The notes under the pieces were generated by a model that searched no databases, was not told the origin of the DNA, and worked only from the letters and a program-made list of their open reading frames with translations. From Alphaproteobacteria bacterium (GTDB lineage Bacteria; Pseudomonadota; Alphaproteobacteria; JBBDQX01), in NCBI GenBank assembly GCA_965601735.1, contig OZ271840.1:2500473-2564472 (forward strand): 64,000 nucleotides of DNA. Direction: 5' to 3'. Position 1 is the first letter of the stretch, and each line of letters opens with the position of its first letter. Below, in pieces: positions 846 through 25,339 of the stretch. The translations under genes and the position numbers were made by a program.

Positions 846-1844
846 TCAGTCGCCGGCGGCGGCCTGTGGCGCGCGCGCCGCGTCGTAGAGATGGCATTCT
901 GCCATGCCGCCATCGGGCTGTTGCAACGGCGTCGGCGTCACCGTCTCGCACACGCCCTGCATGAAATGGGCGCAGCGCGGGTGGAAGGTGCAGGCCGCCG
1001 GCGGATTGATCGGGTTCGGGAACTCCGCCCCGAGATGGGCGTCGGGCACACCAAGATGCGGTTCCGGCGTCAGCACCGACTGCAGCAGTGCCTGGGTATA
1101 GGGGTGGCGCGGATTGGCGAATAGCGCCTCGGTCTCGTTCTCCTCGACGATACGGCCGAGATACATCACCGCCACCCGGGTGGCGATATGCTCGACCACC
1201 GCGAGGTTATGGCTGATCAGCACGTAGGTGAGGCCGAATTCCTGGCGCAGGTCGAGCAGCAGGTTGAGGATCTGTGACTGCACCGAGACGTCGAGCGCCG
1301 AGGTCGGCTCGTCGCAGATCACCACTTCGGGCCGCATGATCAGGGCGCGCGCGATGGCCACGCGCTGGCGCTGTCCGCCGGAAAGCTGGCTTGGATAGGC
1401 GCTCATGTAGCGTTCGGCGAGGCCGACCGTCTTCATGATGTCGCGCACCCGCTCGCGCTGCTCATCGTCGTCGCCAACCCTGTGCACCCGCAGCGGCAGG
1501 GCGATGGCGTCCATCACCGACTTGCGCGGGTTCAGGGACGAGTAGGGGTCCTGGAAGATTGGCTGAACCCGGCGCGCCAGCTCCAGCCGGTCGATGCTGC
1601 GCACCGCATCGCCGTCGAAGCGGATGTCGCCGGATGTGGCGGGCAGCAGGCCGAGCAGCATCTTCGCCAGTGTGCTCTTGCCGCAGCCGGATTCGCCGAC
1701 CAGCCCCAGCACCTCGCCCTTGCCGACCGACAGCGACACGCCGTTGACCGCGTGCAGCAGCTTCTTCTTGGAGAAGAGGCCCGAGCCCACGGTGAAGGTG
1801 CGGGTGACATCGACGGTCTCGAGGACCGGCACGGCGTCGTTCAC
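846..1844 (-). CDS. Dpp/Opp-type peptide ABC transporter ATP-binding protein (DppF/OppF-like)
   Basis: Walker [10 protein letters not shown], signature LSGGQRQR, and a C-terminal oligopeptide-transporter extension with conserved Cys. ATGA overlap with the upstream gene. Confidence 0.85.
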
Positions 1845-2851
1845 GAGACCGTCTCCATGCTGCTGGCCCCGGCGCGGGTTTCGTCGGGCGAGAGCACGCA
1901 GCGGTAGCCGCGGCCCTCGTCGAGCCAGTTGATGTCGACCGCGTTCGGTGCGCAGCGGTCATTGGCCAGCGCACAGCGGTCGCGGAAATGGCAGCCGGGA
2001 ATTTCGCCCACCAGGCTCGGCACAATCCCCGGGATCGAGCCCAGGTGGTCGCCGCGCTTGGTCTTGCCGGGCACCGGGATGCAATCGAGCAGGCCGCGGG
2101 TATAGGGATGCAGCGGATCGCCGAATACCGCTTCCGCGCTACCCTTCTCGACGACCTGGCCGGCATACATCACGCAGACCCGGTCGGCCATGCGGGCGAC
2201 GACGCCGAGATCGTGGGTGATCAGAATCAGGCCCATGTGGAACTCGTCCTGCAGTTCCTTCAGCAGCAGCAGGATCTGTGCCTGGATGGTCACGTCGAGC
2301 GCGGTGGTGGGTTCGTCCGCGATAATCAGGTCGGGACCGCACATCAGCGTCATGGCGATCATCACCCGTTGGCGCAGACCGCCTGACAGCTGGTGCGGGT
2401 ACTGGCCAAGGCGCCCGGCCGCACCGGTAATGCCGACCTTTTCCAGCAGATAGACCGCGCGGTCGCGCGCCTCCTGACGCGACACCTGGCGGTGCCGCAG
2501 CATTGCCTCTTCCATCTGGTTGCCGATGGTGAAGGACGGATTGAGGCTGGTCATCGGCTCCTGGAAGATCATCCCCATGCGGTTGCCGCGGATGTCCGCC
2601 ATGTCCCGCTCGGGCGCATTCAGCAGGTCGATGCCGTCGAGCTCGAGCTTGTTGCCCGCACGGCTTGCGCGCTTCGGCAGCAGGCCCATGATCGCCAGTG
2701 AGGTCAGCGATTTGCCGCATCCCGACTCGCCGACGATGCACAGGGTCTCGCCCTTGTCGACGTGGAACGACACGTTCTGCACCGGGTGCAGCACGCCCGA
2801 CGCAAGCGGAATGTCGACGGTCAGGCCGTCGACCTCAAGCAGGACGCTCAA
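1841..2851 (-). CDS. Dpp/Opp-type peptide ABC transporter ATP-binding protein (DppD/OppD-like)
   Basis: Walker A GESGCGKS, signature LSGGLRQR, and an oligopeptide ABC C-terminal domain. 4-nt overlaps on both sides. Confidence 0.85.
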
Positions 2852-3798
2852 TTGCGGTTCTCCGGGGCGAGGATGTCGCGGGCACCGTCACCCAGCAGGT
2901 TGATCGCCAGCACCAGGGTGAAGATCGCAAAGCCCGGGATCATGATGAGGTACGGCTCGAACAGCATGTAATCGCGGCCCTCGGCCACCATCAGGCCCCA
3001 GGACGGGGTCGGCGGCTGCACGCCCACGCCGAGGAAGGATAGGGCGGCTTCCAGCAGGATCGCGTGCGCTACCTCGAAGGTCGCGATGACCAGCAGGTTG
3101 CCGAGCACGTTGGGCATGATTTCTGAGAGGATAATGCGCCGGGTCGAACAGCCAATGGCCTCCGCCGCCGCGACATAGTCGAGCGAGCGAATTTGCTGCG
3201 TCGTACTGCGCATGACCACGGTGAAGCGGTCCCATAATAGGAATCCGAGCACCAGGATGACCGTTGTCAGCGAACCGCCGACGACCACCACAAGGGCCAG
3301 GGCGACCATCACCACCGGCAGGGTCAGCCGGGTGGTCAGCAGGAAGGTGATCACCATGTCGACCCGGCCGCCGAAATAGCCGGCCATGATGCCCATGGTG
3401 GTGCCGAGCACACCGGAGATCGCCATCGCGGTGAAGCCGATCAGCAGTGAGATTTGCGAGCCATAAATGATGCGGCTGAGATAGTCGCGCCCCAGGGCGT
3501 CGGTGCCCAGGGGGTGCGCCCAGCTGCCGCCCTCGGCCCACACCGGGTAGACCAGCCGGTTGCCCAGGTCCTGGGCGTAGGGGTCGTAGGGCGCCAGCAG
3601 CGGCGCCGCCAGCGCCATGAAGATGATACCGAGGATGATCACCGCGGCGATCATGAAGCTGCCATGGCCGACGACGCGGCGCATGAACAGGGTCTGTGCG
3701 CTGGGCTCGTCGCGGCTCTCGACGCCGAGCGGATCGGCGCCGCCGGGGACGTCGCCGGAATCGGCCGGCGACACGCGGGTCATGGTGGGGGGTGCCAT
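2848..3798 (-). CDS. Dpp/Opp-type ABC permease (DppC/OppC-like)
   Basis: Multi-TM protein with an EAA-like permease loop. Start may be at the internal Met (MTRVSP). Confidence 0.8.
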   Translation of the reverse strand: MAPPTMTRVSPADSGDVPGGADPLGVESRDEPSAQTLFMRRVVGHGSFMIAAVIILGIIFMALAAPLLAPYDPYAQDLGNRLVYPVWAEGGSWAHPLGTDALGRDYLSRIIYGSQISLLIGFTAMAISGVLGTTMGIMAGYFGGRVDMVITFLLTTRLTLPVVMVALALVVVVGGSLTTVILVLGFLLWDRFTVVMRSTTQQIRSLDYVAAAEAIGCSTRRIILSEIMPNVLGNLLVIATFEVAHAILLEAALSFLGVGVQPPTPSWGLMVAEGRDYMLFEPYLIMIPGFAIFTLVLAINLLGDGARDILAPENRN

Positions 3799-23497: not shown

Positions 23498-23506
23498 AGG
23501 GAGACT

Positions 23507-25339
23507 GTGATGCGGGTCGATCCCGACATCATGGTGACGACGCGCGACGGAGTGCGCCTCGCAACCGATGTCTACCGTCCGGAGGCCGGCGGGCCGTTTC
23601 CGGTGATCCTGGAGCGCACGCCCTATGGCAAGACCCAGGCGAGCCGTTCGGAGATCAGTCTCGCACGGCCCGAAGAGCCCTACACCCGGCCCGAGATCGC
23701 GGCCTATTTCGTCGAACAGGGCTACGCGGTGGTCTATCAGGATTGCCGTGGCCGGTTTGGCTCCGAGGGCGTCTTCACCAAGTATCTCGACGACGGGCCA
23801 GACGGTGCCGACTGCATTGACTGGATCAAGGCGCAGGACTGGTGCAACGGGCGGATCGGCATGATGGGCCTGTCCTACGCCGCCCACACTCAGGCAGCGG
23901 CAGCCTGCCTCAACCCGCCGGGTCTCTCATGCCTGTTCCTCGATTCCGGCGGGTTCTCCAACGCCTACCAGGGCGGCATCCGTCAGGGCGGCGCTTTCGA
24001 GCTGAAGCAGGCCACCTGGGCCTACAAGAACGCCTGCGACAGCCCCGAGGCGGCGGACCCGGTGGTGCGCGCCGCGCTCGAAGCCCAGGACATGCGCGAC
24101 TGGTTCACCCGCATGCCCTGGCGCACCGGCCATTCGCCGGTCGCCGCCGTGCCGGAATACGAGGACTACCTGCTCGACCAGTGGCGTCACGGCACCTTCG
24201 ATGACTATTGGCGTCAGGTCGGCATCTACGCGGCGGGCTACTACGACGACTTCAGCGATGTGCCGATGGTGCATATGTCGAGCTGGTACGACGCCTATCC
24301 GCGCACCGCGACGGAGAACTATGTCGGGCTAAAGGCGCGCAAAAAGGGGCCGGTGCGCCTCATCATGGGGCCTTGGACCCATGGGGATCGGTCCCAGCGC
24401 ATCTTTGGCGACGTGGACTTCGGTGACGCCGCGCCGCTGGACGGACAACTCGCCGAGGACCACCGGGCGCTCCGGCTGCGCTGGTTCGACCGCTGGCTGC
24501 GGGACATCGACAATGCGGTCGATGCCGAAGCCCCGGTGCGCCTGTTCGTGATGGGCGGCGGGTCGGGGACGAAGACGGCTGACGGCAAGCTCGACCATGG
24601 CGGGCGCTGGCGCGACGCGGCGGACTGGCCGCTGCCCGAGACCGCCTACACCAACTATTACCTGCATGCCGATGGCGGGCTTCGCACCGACGCGCCGGAC
24701 GCGGACGAGTCCGCCCTGACCTATGACTACGACCCGCGCCACCCGGTGCCGACCATCGGCGGGACGCTGACCTCGGGTGCGCCGGTGATGGTCGGCGGCG
24801 CCTTCGATCAGCGCGAGGATGCGCGCTTCTTCGGCTGCACGCCGCCCTACCTGCCGCTGGCCAGCCGCCCGGATGTGCTTGCGTTCCAGACCGAGCCGCT
24901 GGCCGGGGACGTTGAGGTGACGGGGCCGATCACGGTGAAGCTGTGGGTCGCCTCGGATTGCCCCGACACCGACTTCACCATGAAGCTGATCGACGTCTAC
25001 CCGCCGTCCGAGGACTGGCCCGCCGGCTTCGCCATGAACATCACCGATGGTATCCAGCGCTGCCGCTACCGCGATTCATGGTCCGAGCCCACCCTGATGG
25101 AGCCCGGCAGGGTCTACGAGGTCAGCGTCGAACCGTTCCCCACCAGCAACCTGTTCAAGGCAGGGCATCGCATCCGGCTCGACATCTCCAGCAGCAACTT
25201 TCCGCATTTCGACGTCAATCCGAATACCGGGGAGCCCGAGGGCACGTCCCGGCGCACGCGGATCGCGGCGAACACGGTGTTTATGGACAAGGCCCGCCCG
25301 TCCCATGTGGTGCTGCCGGTCATTCCGGCGGGCGGCTGA
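23507..25339 (+). CDS. CocE/NonD family (peptidase S15, X-Pro dipeptidyl-peptidase-like) alpha/beta hydrolase
   Basis: GLSYAAH nucleophile elbow, about 610 aa, with an S15 C-terminal beta-sandwich domain. Confidence 0.8.
   Translation: MMRVDPDIMVTTRDGVRLATDVYRPEAGGPFPVILERTPYGKTQASRSEISLARPEEPYTRPEIAAYFVEQGYAVVYQDCRGRFGSEGVFTKYLDDGPDGADCIDWIKAQDWCNGRIGMMGLSYAAHTQAAAACLNPPGLSCLFLDSGGFSNAYQGGIRQGGAFELKQATWAYKNACDSPEAADPVVRAALEAQDMRDWFTRMPWRTGHSPVAAVPEYEDYLLDQWRHGTFDDYWRQVGIYAAGYYDDFSDVPMVHMSSWYDAYPRTATENYVGLKARKKGPVRLIMGPWTHGDRSQRIFGDVDFGDAAPLDGQLAEDHRALRLRWFDRWLRDIDNAVDAEAPVRLFVMGGGSGTKTADGKLDHGGRWRDAADWPLPETAYTNYYLHADGGLRTDAPDADESALTYDYDPRHPVPTIGGTLTSGAPVMVGGAFDQREDARFFGCTPPYLPLASRPDVLAFQTEPLAGDVEVTGPITVKLWVASDCPDTDFTMKLIDVYPPSEDWPAGFAMNITDGIQRCRYRDSWSEPTLMEPGRVYEVSVEPFPTSNLFKAGHRIRLDISSSNFPHFDVNPNTGEPEGTSRRTRIAANTVFMDKARPSHVVLPVIPAGG

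What the first reader, a model, noticed from the sequence alone, without database searches (positions are those of the whole stretch)
846..25339. 25-kb peptide-uptake and multi-family peptidase/amidohydrolase island
A dppABCDF-type importer diverges from a single 309-bp control region. On the other side run 14 tightly packed, mostly overlapping (ATGA or TGATG) co-directional genes. In order they are: a PrpD-family protein, a CPG2-like M20, an amidase, a class-III aminotransferase, a second CPG2-like M20, four 470-aa M20A dipeptidase-like enzymes, a cytoplasmic GGT, two MlrC-like M81 peptidases and an S15 CocE/NonD hydrolase. No transcription factor is encoded anywhere in the island.

Stacking glutamate-releasing (CPG2-like), gamma-glutamyl-cleaving (GGT), MlrC-like (linear-peptide) and X-Pro-type hydrolases with an aminotransferase and an amidase suggests one pathway. 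The substrate would be an unusual peptide, gamma-glutamyl, iso-peptide or N-acyl compound, for example peptidoglycan- or cyanotoxin-derived peptides or folate/polyglutamate-like compounds. I do not recognise this arrangement as a described system.
Basis: partly seen in the sequence, partly recalled or inferred. Interest (0 to 1): 0.7.

Follow-up and report, generated by a model that had tools for sequence, protein, structure and literature searches.

The report
Peptide importer plus thirteen-enzyme breakdown operon
A peptide-type uptake system sits back to back with thirteen tightly packed cytoplasmic amide-cleaving and related enzymes; the array looks like several small uptake-plus-peptidase modules, common in related bacteria, joined into one unusually large and uncharacterised operon, not one exotic pathway.

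Summary
Every family call, the coordinates, the 309-bp divergent region and the absence of a regulator were confirmed. Three details need correcting. The array has 13 genes, not 14. Only 3-5 of 12 junctions overlap. The S15 protein resembles the cocaine esterase CocE more than an X-Pro peptidase.

The "PrpD" protein is closest to iminodisuccinate epimerase and keeps its His/Tyr catalytic pair. The aminotransferase passes the cut-off for the Caulobacter beta-amino-acid transaminase AptA. The MlrC-like proteins score far below the microcystinase cut-off.

The window is from an unnamed Acetobacterales relative. An Acetobacterales MAG keeps 12 of the 13 genes in the same order. It lacks the GGT and carries a TRAP transporter beside the PrpD-like gene.

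Elsewhere the parts occur as separate small operons next to similar importers, and the annotated plasmid examples each carry their own regulator:
- dpp-GGT-M20
- dpp-M20-CPG2-like
- dpp-PrpD-like-M20-M81
- aminotransferase-SBP-M20

The ~470-aa M20 (NCBIfam PRK07079) is the shared hub.

Best reading: a fused operon in which "de-capping" enzymes feed terminal M20 dipeptidases, acting on small non-canonical peptides. Substrates are inferred, not shown. This is a new variant of a known kind, of moderate interest.

The parts
91..834 (-). DUF1194 protein with an N-terminal signal-like segment. It lies directly downstream of dppF and is probably a sixth gene of the importer operon.
   Evidence: Pfam PF06707, E 9e-75. 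The same DUF1194-dppF linkage occurs in L005. The start at ~834 is inferred from the 249-aa orthologue and the hydrophobic N-terminus.
846..1844 (-). ABC ATPase (DppF-like)
   Evidence: ABC_tran + oligo_HPY
1841..2851 (-). ABC ATPase (DppD-like)
   Evidence: ABC_tran + oligo_HPY
2848..3798 (-). Permease (DppC-like)
   Evidence: OppC_N + BPD_transp_1
3814..4731 (-). Permease (DppB-like)
   Evidence: BPD_transp_1_N + BPD_transp_1
4836..6356 (-). Periplasmic family-5 solute-binding protein with a Sec signal peptide. It is not an equivalog of DppA, GsiB, NikA or CntA.
   Evidence: SBP_bac_5. N-terminus MNIRHLMAPALAVGIALTAGQAMA|GK. All NCBIfam hits are far below their cut-offs. Nearest solved structures are uncharacterised peptide binding proteins, YliB/GsiB and AccA.
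6357..6665 (.). 309-bp divergent control region. It holds a perfect inverted repeat, GAACCTGGC-N11-GCCAGGTTC, at 6450-6478. It also holds a TGTGTAAC(A/G)T motif (minus-strand reading, about 6505-6520) shared with the region upstream of dppA in two related genomes.
   Evidence: Sequence. The repeat is unique in the window with 0 expected by chance, but it is absent from the MAG. Motif alignment. No Rfam match. No sigma-70 consensus promoter.
6666..8087 (+). MmgE/PrpD-family protein of the iminodisuccinate-epimerase type. Proposed epimerase or isomerase acting at C2 of a succinyl/aspartyl-type dicarboxylate.
   Evidence: Pfam. PrpD equivalog 52.6 bits against a cut-off of 950. Best PDB match is IDS epimerase 2HP0/2HP3, E 1.6e-61, with H99/Y145 conserved as H98/Y144 (residues from PMC7347537).
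8084..9223 (+). CPG2-like M20 hydrolase 1, cytoplasmic
   Evidence: M20 + M20_dimer. PRK07473 scores 381 against a cut-off of 386. CPG2 1cg2, E 7e-47. HLDTV, ADMKGG, DEELGS and HTHDE motifs present.
9229..10647 (+). Amidase-signature amidase
   Evidence: PF01425, E 6.5e-80. GGSSAG and GGSIRIP motifs present. No NCBIfam cut-off reached.
10693..12012 (+). Omega-aminotransferase, AptA type (short beta-amino acids, amines)
   Evidence: NF052567 scores 624 bits against a cut-off of 500. Substrate range of the Caulobacter enzyme from PMC3281772.
12037..13173 (+). CPG2-like M20 hydrolase 2. Its MAG orthologue is 81% identical to it and 59% identical to copy 1.
13197..14594 (+). M20 of NCBIfam PRK07079, subtype 1. 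This is the hub subtype found next to the PrpD-like gene, GGT or CPG2-like genes in other genomes.
   Evidence: NF005478 scores 647 bits against a cut-off of 330. Metal-ligand motifs are invariant. Best match of the M20 genes in L013, L015, L017, L019, L025 and L032-L034.
14606..16012 (+). PRK07079 M20, paralogue 2
   Evidence: Start fixed by the public protein P0014.
16040..17455 (+). PRK07079 M20, paralogue 3
17455..18873 (+). PRK07079 M20, paralogue 4. This subtype stands alone opposite the dpp genes in L005 and L010.
18873..20432 (+). Gamma-glutamyltransferase-family Ntn hydrolase, cytoplasmic. Absent from the syntenic array of the nearest relative.
   Evidence: PF01019. Thr337 nucleophile, no signal peptide. 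TIGR00066 scores 279 against a cut-off of 358. Absent in L001. Best non-self homologue is 57% identical.
20451..21977 (+). M81 (MlrC-like) metallopeptidase 1
   Evidence: DUF1485 + MlrC_C. H109/D143/H145/H167 have the spacing of MlrC H150/D184/H186/H208 (PMC12474180). Microcystinase model scores 168 against a cut-off of 999.
21974..23497 (+). M81 (MlrC-like) metallopeptidase 2. Likely start at ATG 21992. This subtype follows PrpD-like and M20 genes in metagenomic loci.
23507..25339 (+). CocE/NonD-family serine hydrolase (S15 fold)
   Evidence: Peptidase_S15 + PepX_C. TIGR00976 scores 425 against a cut-off of 66. Cocaine esterase, E 2e-87. A 70%-identical orthologue lies near the dpp genes in L005.

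Best explanation
This is a chromosomal catabolic locus of an Acetobacterales-type alphaproteobacterium.

**Proposed mechanism**
- A Dpp/Opp-family ABC importer, with a secreted family-5 binding protein, brings small peptide-like compounds into the cell.
- A 13-gene, probably single, transcription unit of cytoplasmic enzymes takes them apart.
- "De-capping" enzymes remove non-standard ends:
  - the GGT removes gamma-glutamyl groups;
  - the two CPG2-like M20s remove C-terminal acidic residues or N-acyl/N-carbamoyl groups;
  - the amidase cleaves amide groups;
  - the two M81 enzymes remove unusual N-terminal residues, as MlrC does for the beta-amino acid Adda;
  - the CocE-like hydrolase cleaves ester or amide caps.
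- The four PRK07079 M20 paralogues, which resemble carnosinase and DUG1, then split the remaining dipeptides.
- The AptA-type transaminase deaminates released beta/omega-amino acids.
- The IDS-epimerase-like PrpD-family protein inverts a stereocentre on a succinyl/aspartyl-type moiety, so that D-forms or opine-like forms become cleavable.

**Origin.** The array is a fusion, with paralogue expansion, of modules that elsewhere exist as separate small operons beside similar importers.

**Shown:** family memberships, intact catalytic motifs, cellular location, packing, synteny in one relative, and recurrence of the modules.
**Inferred:** co-transcription, every substrate, the order of steps, and the role of the PrpD-like protein.
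For: **Families and motifs:**

**Location.** Only the binding protein (and DUF1194) carries a signal-like N-terminus; none of the 13 array enzymes does.

**Packing.** Gaps are at most 45 bp. Terminator- and promoter-like sites inside the array do not exceed those in shuffled sequence.

**Synteny.** Contigs L026 and L001 of the MAG GCA_040905765.1 abut inside the AptA gene. Together they read dppA, DctMQP <> PrpD-M20cpg1-amidase-AptA-M20cpg2-M20A1-4-MlrC1-MlrC2, at 71-89% amino-acid identity.

**Modules found elsewhere:**
- DUF1194-dppFDCBA <> a single M20A, with the S15 gene nearby (L005).
- dpp <> M20A (L010).
- Aminotransferase-SBP-M20A (L008).
- dppABCDF-PrpD-like-M20A-M20A-M81 (L019). PrpD-like-M20A-M81 (L013, L017). 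PrpD-like-M20A (L015). dppABCDF-PrpD-like (L018). All.
- IclR <> dppABCDF-GGT-M20A on a Sulfitobacter plasmid. M20-GGT adjacency is flagged in at least four Roseobacteraceae plasmids.
- LysR <> dppABCDF-M20A-CPG2-like in Azospirillum.
- IclR-M20A-CPG2-like-hydantoinase A/B in Ketogulonicigenium, and a similar block in Roseomonas.
- M81-dpp-M20-CPG2-like in Nitratireductor.
- An enolase-superfamily (MR_MLE) gene beside an M20A_1-type M20 and dpp genes (L009). This parallels the epimerase-plus-dipeptidase logic.

**Published enzyme properties:**
- Known MmgE/PrpD substrates all share a C2-substituted 1,4-dicarboxylate (PMC12290011).
- AptA acts on short beta-amino acids (PMC3281772).
Against: - No experimental datum exists for any protein here, and no substrate is known.
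- No enzyme except AptA and the PRK07079/CocE_NonD subfamily models reaches a function-specific cut-off.
- The relative's TRAP (DctPQM) transporter next to the PrpD-like gene suggests that some substrates may be free carboxylates and not peptides.
- The closest sequence homologues of the GGT and the amidase sit in unrelated contexts, so their presence could be opportunistic.
- Several close PrpD-like homologues lack any M20 or M81 neighbour (L011, L014, L016).
- One distant homologue lies among CoA-transferase genes (L021).
- No regulator is encoded, so induction by peptides is unproven.
- The neighbourhood sample is small and was not drawn at random.
Confidence: 0.6

Rival explanations
1. One reading: all 13 enzymes form one linear pathway dedicated to a single complex, unusual substrate, such as a toxin-, peptidoglycan- or folate-derived compound.
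For: - Tight co-directional packing behind one control region.
- Twelve of the 13 genes are kept in order in a relative at about 80% identity.
- The mix of bond specificities could match a heterogeneous molecule.
Against: - The GGT is dispensable in the relative.
- Sub-sets of the genes work as stand-alone operons elsewhere.
- Paralogue sets of 4, 2 and 2 suggest parallel specificities, not sequential steps.
- Microcystinase membership fails. None of the island's products hit a family other than those listed, so no further mlr-type gene was seen.
Confidence: 0.12
2. Ordinary nutritional scavenging of standard L-peptides. The importer is a general di/oligopeptide permease and the enzymes are redundant housekeeping peptidases.
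For: - Dpp/Opp-family importer architecture.
- The M20 dipeptidase relatives (carnosinase CN2, DUG1, Sso-CP2) are broad-specificity enzymes.
- Peptide importers with neighbouring M20 genes are common on alphaproteobacterial replicons.
Against: - Standard peptides need none of the following: an IDS-epimerase-like enzyme, a beta/omega-amino-acid transaminase, a cytoplasmic GGT, an amidase-signature enzyme or a CocE-like hydrolase.
- The binding protein is far from DppA and OppA equivalogs.
Confidence: 0.15
3. A pathway for N-carbamoyl or N-acyl amino acids, or hydantoin/pyrimidine-type compounds. The CPG2-like and PRK07079 M20s act as N-carbamoyl/N-acyl-(beta-)amino-acid amidohydrolases, and AptA removes the beta-alanine-type product. 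Peptides are not the main substrate.
For: - M20A and CPG2-like pairs are fused to hydantoinase/oxoprolinase A/B genes in Ketogulonicigenium and Roseomonas.
- AptA prefers beta-alanine and beta-aminobutyrate.
- From my own knowledge: M20 enzymes include N-carbamoyl-L-amino-acid and N-carbamoyl-beta-alanine amidohydrolases.
- A TRAP carboxylate transporter sits in the relative's locus.
Against: - No hydantoinase, dihydropyrimidinase or oxoprolinase gene lies in this island.
- The importer is peptide-type.
- The M81, GGT and S15 members are not explained.
Confidence: 0.1
4. Microcystin or nodularin-type cyanotoxin degradation.
For: Two M81 proteins keep the MlrC zinc-site spacing. An aminotransferase could act on Adda.
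Against: - 168-172 bits against a cut-off of 999 for microcystinase.
- About 1e-47 to MlrC 7ylq, no better than to an uncharacterised M81 structure, 3iuu.
- None of the island's products hit a family expected for MlrA, MlrB or MlrD.
Confidence: 0.03

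Closest known systems
Small 'peptide ABC importer + cytoplasmic M20/GGT/M81' operons on alphaproteobacterial plasmids and chromids. Examples: Sulfitobacter faviae IclR<>dppABCDF-ggt-M20; Azospirillum B510 LysR<>dppABCDF-M20-M20; Nitratireductor M81-dpp-M20-M20. 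All are annotated but uncharacterised.
   Same: Same importer type (44-67% amino-acid identity to this one), same PRK07079-type M20 (51-54%), same partner families, and the same gene-next-to-importer logic.
   Different: Those operons carry one to three enzymes and a local IclR or LysR regulator. This locus carries 13 enzymes of eight family types, arranged divergently from the importer, with no regulator.
Iminodisuccinate degradation in Agrobacterium tumefaciens BY6 (IDS epimerase plus C-N lyase)
   Same: The first gene's product is closest to IDS epimerase among solved structures. It keeps the His/Tyr two-base pair and the dicarboxylate-binding residues (PMC7347537, PMC12290011).
   Different: None of the island's products hit a lyase family. 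The partners here are peptidases. Identity is moderate, and IDS itself is a synthetic chelator.
mlrABCD microcystin-degradation cluster (Sphingopyxis/Sphingomonas)
   Same: M81 metallopeptidase fold and zinc-site motif. MlrC is cytoplasmic and works on an imported peptide (PMC12474180).
   Different: No MlrA-, MlrB- or MlrD-type family was hit in the island. The score is far below the microcystinase cut-off. Import is by an ABC system and not by a PTR2/MFS carrier.
Glutathione import and breakdown: the GsiABCD importer with GGT in E. coli, and the Cys-Gly dipeptidase Dug1p in yeast (own knowledge)
   Same: A Dpp-family importer, a GGT-family hydrolase and a DUG1/carnosinase-like M20 are adjacent. 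The dpp-GGT-M20 trio recurs as an operon. GsiB/YliB is among the nearest solved binding proteins.
   Different: The binding protein is not a GsiB equivalog (138 bits against a cut-off of 594). The GGT is cytoplasmic and below the GGT equivalog cut-off. The GGT is missing in the nearest relative.
Murein-peptide recycling clusters that pair a dipeptide epimerase with peptidases and a peptide importer: B. subtilis ykfABCD next to dpp, and E. coli ycjG/mpaA/mppA (own knowledge)
   Same: The logic of epimerase + peptidases + Dpp-type uptake. An enolase-superfamily (MR_MLE) gene sits beside an M20A_1-type M20 and dpp genes in L009.
   Different: The candidate epimerase here belongs to the MmgE/PrpD fold, not the enolase superfamily. 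No LD-carboxypeptidase or NlpC/P60 family was hit in the island.
Carboxypeptidase G2 (Pseudomonas sp. RS-16)
   Same: M20 catalytic and dimerisation domains with metal-ligand motifs.
   Different: No signal peptide, so the proteins are cytoplasmic. They are below the glutamate-carboxypeptidase subfamily cut-off. Folate activity is untested.

Membership tests
Dpp/Opp-family peptide ABC importer | Family-5 binding protein, two permeases (one with OppC_N), and two ATPases with the oligo_HPY C-terminal region, all in one operon | tested here: met
   Pfam hits for all five genes. Signal peptide on the binding protein.
Dpp/Opp-family peptide ABC importer | Binding protein is an equivalog of a characterised one (DppA, GsiB, NikA, CntA, Opp4A) | tested here: not met
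   Best NCBIfam scores are 155, 138, 122, 120, 106 and 104 bits, against cut-offs of 393-1005.
Microcystin degradation (mlr) | MlrC equivalog score | tested here: not met
   NF041767 scores 167.9 and 171.8 bits against a cut-off of 999.
Microcystin degradation (mlr) | Companion genes mlrA (CAAX-type protease), mlrB (serine hydrolase) and mlrD (PTR2 transporter) | tested here: not met
   None of the 18 gene products between 846 and 25339 hit such a family.
M81 metallopeptidase | DUF1485 + MlrC_C domains and the zinc-site residues His, Asp-x-His, His with MlrC spacing | tested here: met
   H109/D143/H145/H167 in copy 1 and H115/D149/H151/H173 in copy 2, against MlrC H150/D184/H186/H208 (PMC12474180). 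The equivalent of Glu56 is assigned only tentatively, to the HETN motif.
2-methylcitrate dehydratase PrpD | Equivalog score and a prp operon context | tested here: not met
   NF042438 scores 52.6 bits against a cut-off of 950. None of the neighbouring products hit a PrpB-, PrpC- or PrpE-type family.
MmgE/PrpD two-base epimerases/isomerases (IDS epimerase, methylsuccinate isomerase) | Catalytic His and Tyr pair plus the carboxylate-binding His, Asp/Glu, His, Lys and Lys residues | tested here: met
   Alignment to 2HP3 gives H98 and Y144 (= H99 and Y145). H84, D87, H149, K197 and K265 have the family spacing (PMC12290011; PMC7347537).
MmgE/PrpD two-base epimerases/isomerases (IDS epimerase, methylsuccinate isomerase) | Demonstrated epimerase activity and known substrate | not testable with these tools
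   Needs an enzyme assay.
Iminodisuccinate pathway | Stereoselective C-N lyase partner | tested here: not met
   None of the island's products hit a lyase family.
Glutamate carboxypeptidase (CPG2) subfamily of M20 | Subfamily score; periplasmic location | tested here: not met
   PRK06133 scores 264 and 246 bits against a cut-off of 349. PRK07473 is just short, at 381 and 382 against 386. No signal peptides.
NCBIfam PRK07079 M20 subfamily (function unassigned) | Score above the cut-off and intact M20 metal ligands | tested here: met
   647, 519, 538 and 532 bits against a cut-off of 330. The HGD, DNKG, EE, DGPR and C-terminal His columns are invariant in all four paralogues and four homologues.
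Gamma-glutamyltransferase (T03) | Autoprocessing Thr nucleophile and G_glu_transpept domain | tested here: met
   PF01019, E 2e-94. T337 aligns with residue 1 of the E. coli small subunit.
Gamma-glutamyltransferase (T03) | Equivalog score; periplasmic export as in E. coli GGT | tested here: not met
   TIGR00066 scores 279 against a cut-off of 357.85. The N-terminus leaves no room for a signal peptide.
Omega-aminotransferase AptA | Equivalog score | tested here: met
   NF052567 scores 624.1 bits against a cut-off of 500, full length.
CocE/NonD hydrolases (S15 fold) | Subfamily score and Ser nucleophile motif | tested here: met
   TIGR00976 scores 424.8 against a cut-off of 66.3. The GLSYAA, SWYD and GPWTHG motifs are present. 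Their match to the CocE Ser/Asp/His triad rests on my recollection of CocE, not on an alignment.
Mobile genomic island | Compositional break, flanking tRNA, integrase, transposase or repeats | tested here: not met
   G+C is 0.63-0.71 across the locus, like the rest of the window. No tRNA. Flanking genes are metabolic. The left flank is syntenic in L005.

The most novel reading that the evidence does not exclude
The MmgE/PrpD-family protein is a new kind of epimerase. It would act on the aspartyl or other succinyl-type end of small peptides or natural aminopolycarboxylates, such as X-D-Asp, iso-Asp-type or opine/IDS/EDDS-like compounds. It would work as a conserved trio with a PRK07079 M20 and an M81 peptidase behind a Dpp-type importer.

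That would give the MmgE/PrpD family its first peptide-linked role. It would also give the large orphan M81 and PRK07079 families a physiological function.
Probability: 0.2. Interest if true: 0.7.

Novelty: new variant of a known kind. Interest (0 to 1): 0.4.

Why it matters
Three large enzyme groups that are widespread in Alphaproteobacteria have no assigned physiological role outside a single case each. They are the M81 MlrC-like peptidases, the ~470-aa PRK07079 M20 hydrolases, and the IDS-epimerase-like branch of MmgE/PrpD.

This locus and its relatives show these groups repeatedly wired to one type of peptide importer, with the PRK07079 M20 as the common partner. That yields a testable rule: de-capping enzyme plus terminal dipeptidase. 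It also yields a short list of candidate substrates, namely gamma-glutamyl, beta-aminoacyl, D-Asp/iso-Asp or amidated small peptides.

If the rule holds, it would improve annotation of thousands of "M20/M81 family metallopeptidase" genes. It would also clarify how soil and marine bacteria recycle non-ribosomal and damaged peptides. The locus itself is not a new kind of system.

Tried and rejected
- **Whole-array search against plasmids.** Megablast of the whole 24.5-kb region matched only the ABC genes, at about 72-75% nucleotide identity. No copy of the array is in that collection.
- **Genome-collection scan.** One M20 paralogue as query returned only two loci, both from one MAG, so a wide genome-level survey was not possible.
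- **Exact look-up of window proteins.** The source stays "unnamed, Acetobacterales-like".
- **Microcystin reading.** Rejected on score and missing partner genes.
- **Mobile-island reading.** Rejected.
- **Riboswitch or RNA element in the 309-bp region.** No Rfam match at E <= 1.
- **Perfect inverted repeat at 6450-6478 as a conserved operator.** It is unique in the window and unexpected by chance. It is absent from the MAG and the other loci, so it was left as an unconfirmed candidate.
- **GGT as a one-off insertion.** I first read it this way because its nearest homologues stand alone. I revised this after finding dpp-GGT-M20 operons on Roseobacteraceae plasmids.
- **Amidase neighbourhoods.** They showed no link to peptidases outside the close relative.
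- **Structure prediction.** Not run. It would not discriminate between candidate substrates.

Full report
**1. Check of the observation**

On the minus strand lie two ATPases with the oligo_HPY tail (846-1844, 1841-2851), two permeases (2848-3798, 3814-4731) and a family-5 binding protein.

- The binding protein's real start is ATG 6356. It is followed by a Sec-type signal peptide...GQAMA|GK.
- The first plus-strand gene starts at ATG 6666 behind a GGGAGAAG ribosome-binding site. The shared intergenic region is therefore 309 bp, as stated.

The plus strand carries, in order:
- an MmgE/PrpD protein;
- a CPG2-like M20;
- an amidase-signature enzyme;
- a class-III aminotransferase;
- a second CPG2-like M20;
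- four ~470-aa M20s;
- a GGT;
- two M81/MlrC_C proteins;
- an S15/PepX_C protein.

Gaps run from -4 to +45 bp.

The public database starts the second ~470-aa M20 at 14606 and the GGT at 18873. MlrC_2 probably starts at 21992. That leaves about three true overlaps out of 12 junctions.

No product in 846-25339 belongs to a regulator family, and no coding space is left over. Inside the array, promoter- and terminator-like sites do not exceed those in shuffled sequence. That is compatible with one transcription unit but does not prove it.

**2. Finer identity of the parts**

- **PrpD-like protein.** It is not a methylcitrate dehydratase (52.6 bits against a cut-off of 950). Among solved structures it is closest to iminodisuccinate (IDS) epimerase (E 1.6e-61). 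The residues proposed as the two catalytic bases of that enzyme, H99 and Y145 (PMC7347537), align with H98 and Y144. The His/Asp/His/Lys/Lys set that binds the two carboxylates across the family is also present with the family spacing (PMC12290011). All characterised members of this family act at C2 of a 1,4-dicarboxylate.
- **Aminotransferase.** It passes the equivalog cut-off for Caulobacter AptA (624 against 500). AptA is an omega-transaminase most active on beta-alanine, beta-aminobutyrate and amines (PMC3281772).
- **The four long M20s.** They belong to NCBIfam PRK07079, which has no assigned function (519-647 bits against 330). Their nearest solved relatives are carnosinases, the Cys-Gly dipeptidase DUG1 and a carboxypeptidase. 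All metal-ligand columns are invariant.
- **The two short M20s.** They resemble CPG2 (E 7e-47) but fall below the glutamate-carboxypeptidase cut-off and have no signal peptide.
- **GGT.** It has its nucleophile threonine and no signal peptide.
- **M81 proteins.** They keep the His, Asp-x-His, His spacing of the MlrC zinc site (PMC12474180). They score only 168-172 bits against a microcystinase cut-off of 999.
- **S15 protein.** It is a CocE/NonD hydrolase closest to cocaine esterase.
- **Binding protein.** It is not an equivalog of any characterised family-5 binding protein.

**3. Source and conservation**

The window matches a 3.27-Mb NCBI/ENA contig for which no name was returned. The nearest genome is an Acetobacterales MAG. 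Two of its contigs (L026, L001) abut inside the AptA gene. Together they read dppA, DctMQP (a TRAP transporter) <> PrpD-like, CPG2-like 1, amidase, AptA, CPG2-like 2, M20A1-4, MlrC1, MlrC2, at 71-89% amino-acid identity.

Twelve of the 13 genes are thus syntenic. The paralogues are old: 45-61% identical to each other, each with its own orthologue in the MAG. The GGT is absent there, a TRAP transporter is present, and the S15 position lies beyond the contig end.

G+C is flat, there is no tRNA and there are no mobility genes. The DUF1194-dpp left flank is syntenic in another genome. This is not a mobile island.

**4. The parts recur as separate modules**

Looking up homologues and their neighbourhoods gave a consistent picture.

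| Module | Where seen |
|---|---|
| DUF1194-dppFDCBA opposite a single PRK07079 M20, S15 orthologue nearby | L005 |
| dpp opposite a single PRK07079 M20 | L010 |
| Aminotransferase-binding protein-M20 | Roseomonas (L008) |
| dppABCDF-PrpD-like-M20-M20-M81 | L019, a 396-kb contig |
| PrpD-like-M20-M81 | L013, L017 |
| PrpD-like-M20 | L015 |
| dppABCDF-PrpD-like | L018 |
| IclR <> dppABCDF-GGT-M20 | Sulfitobacter plasmid |
| LysR <> dppABCDF-M20-CPG2-like | Azospirillum |
| IclR-M20-CPG2-like-hydantoinase A/B | Ketogulonicigenium; similar in Roseomonas |
| M81-dpp-M20-CPG2-like | Nitratireductor |
| dpp-serine hydrolase-PrpD-like, and LysR-M20-PrpD-like | Ketogulonicigenium |

The M20-GGT adjacency is flagged in at least four Roseobacteraceae plasmids.

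In most of these modules that carry an M20 (L013, L015, L017, L019, L025, L032-L034), it is best matched by this window's first long M20, M20A_1. The subtype that stands alone opposite the dpp genes (L005, L010), and the L008 copy, match M20A_4 best.

Not all homologues are linked to peptidases. Some close PrpD-like genes lack M20 or M81 neighbours (L011, L014, L016). One distant PrpD-like gene sits among CoA-transferase genes (L021). The closest GGT and amidase homologues are in unrelated contexts.

**5. Interpretation**

The best-supported reading is a fused, paralogue-expanded operon that gathers several two- to four-gene modules behind one importer. In other Alphaproteobacteria these modules are separate; the annotated plasmid examples each carry a local LysR- or IclR-type regulator.

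The PRK07079 M20 is the common partner of GGT, CPG2-like, M81 and PrpD-like genes. Its solved relatives are dipeptidases. I therefore propose a "de-cap, then split" scheme:
- specialised hydrolases remove a non-standard end (gamma-glutamyl, C-terminal acidic or N-acyl group, amide, unusual N-terminal residue, ester);
- the M20 paralogues hydrolyse the remaining dipeptide;
- AptA disposes of beta/omega-amino acids;
- the PrpD-like enzyme inverts a succinyl/aspartyl-type stereocentre.

An enolase-superfamily gene sits beside an M20A_1-type M20 and dpp genes in L009. This offers an independent parallel for the epimerase-plus-dipeptidase logic.

All substrate statements are inferences from family behaviour and gene context. 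Nothing here has been assayed.

**6. Rivals**

- **A single dedicated pathway** is disfavoured by the modularity, the dispensable GGT and the paralogue sets.
- **Plain L-peptide scavenging** does not explain the epimerase-like, transaminase, GGT, amidase and esterase-like members.
- **An N-carbamoyl/N-acyl amino-acid route** is suggested by the hydantoinase-linked modules and the TRAP transporter. It leaves the M81, GGT and S15 genes and the peptide-type importer unexplained, and this island has no hydantoinase.
- **Microcystin degradation** fails the membership tests.

**7. Novelty and verdict**

I found no paper describing this arrangement or a link between PrpD-family proteins, M20s and M81s. 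The searchable library is incomplete.

The system type, an importer plus cytoplasmic hydrolases, is well known, and its small versions are common in annotated genomes. What is unusual here:
- the scale, 13 enzymes including six M20s;
- the lack of a local regulator;
- the recurrent, unstudied PrpD-like/M20/M81 trio.

I rate it a new variant of a known kind, with interest about 0.4. The most novel reading still open is a peptide- or aminopolycarboxylate-directed epimerase in the MmgE/PrpD family, working with M20 and M81 enzymes. I give it about 0.2 probability.

Noticed in passing
window 38218-45012: Two further MmgE/PrpD-family genes, at 38218-39690 (+) and 43165-45012 (-), bracket a TctC/TctB/TctA tripartite tricarboxylate transporter at 39812-43168. 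They are only 25-30% identical to the island's PrpD-like protein. The 64-kb window therefore holds three members of this family, two of them in a carboxylate-uptake context.
   Followed up: partly
window 91-951 (-): A DUF1194 protein with a signal-like N-terminus directly follows dppF. The gap is about 11 bp if the start is at ~834. The same DUF1194-dppF linkage is present in L005, and a DUF1194 gene lies near dpp-type genes in L008. It may be an unrecognised sixth component of this importer type.
   Followed up: partly
L026 2011-5124 (MAG GCA_040905765.1): In the nearest relative, a TRAP transporter (DctP/DctQ/DctM) lies between dppA and the PrpD-like gene and is transcribed divergently from the enzyme array. 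The window has no such genes at this position.
   Followed up: partly
window about 6505-6520; L026 about 1700-1720; L005 about 9760-9780: A shared motif, TGTGTAAC(A/G)T followed by a T-rich run, lies about 150-190 bp upstream of dppA in the window, the MAG and L005, but not in L010. It may be a promoter or operator element. The rest of the intergenic regions does not align.
   Followed up: partly
window 6450-6478: A perfect 9-bp inverted repeat, GAACCTGGC-N11-GCCAGGTTC, lies in the divergent control region. It is unique in the window with 0 expected in shuffles, but it is not conserved in the related loci.
   Followed up: yes
window 25342-26685 (-): A gene with a class-III adenylate/guanylate cyclase domain and a hydrophobic N-terminal part converges on the last gene of the array, with only 2 bp between the stop codons. 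Any link to regulation of the locus is unknown.
   Followed up: no
window 26779-28821 (-) and about 31064-33260 (-): The right flank carries an enoyl-CoA hydratase and a family-III CoA-transferase. Further on lies a penicillin-amidase (Ntn) family gene. That is another amide hydrolase close to the array but outside it.
   Followed up: no
window 48472-49587 and 50583-51689 (+): Two enolase-superfamily (MR_MLE) genes lie near a pentapeptide-repeat protein (51802-53031) and a sigma-54 activator (53143-54603). Members of this superfamily include dipeptide epimerases. No link to the island was examined.
   Followed up: no
L013, L014, L016, L017, L019: In metagenomic relatives the PrpD-like gene, or the M20-M81 block that follows it, is always succeeded by a ~500-aa M48-family peptidase and then an alpha/beta hydrolase on the opposite strand. 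This holds whether or not the M20 and M81 genes are present.
   Followed up: partly
L002 (MAG contig JBBDQX010000203.1) 9980-11398: The same MAG carries a fifth PRK07079-type M20, 58-60% identical to paralogues 2-4, at a separate locus. Its neighbours were not annotated.
   Followed up: no
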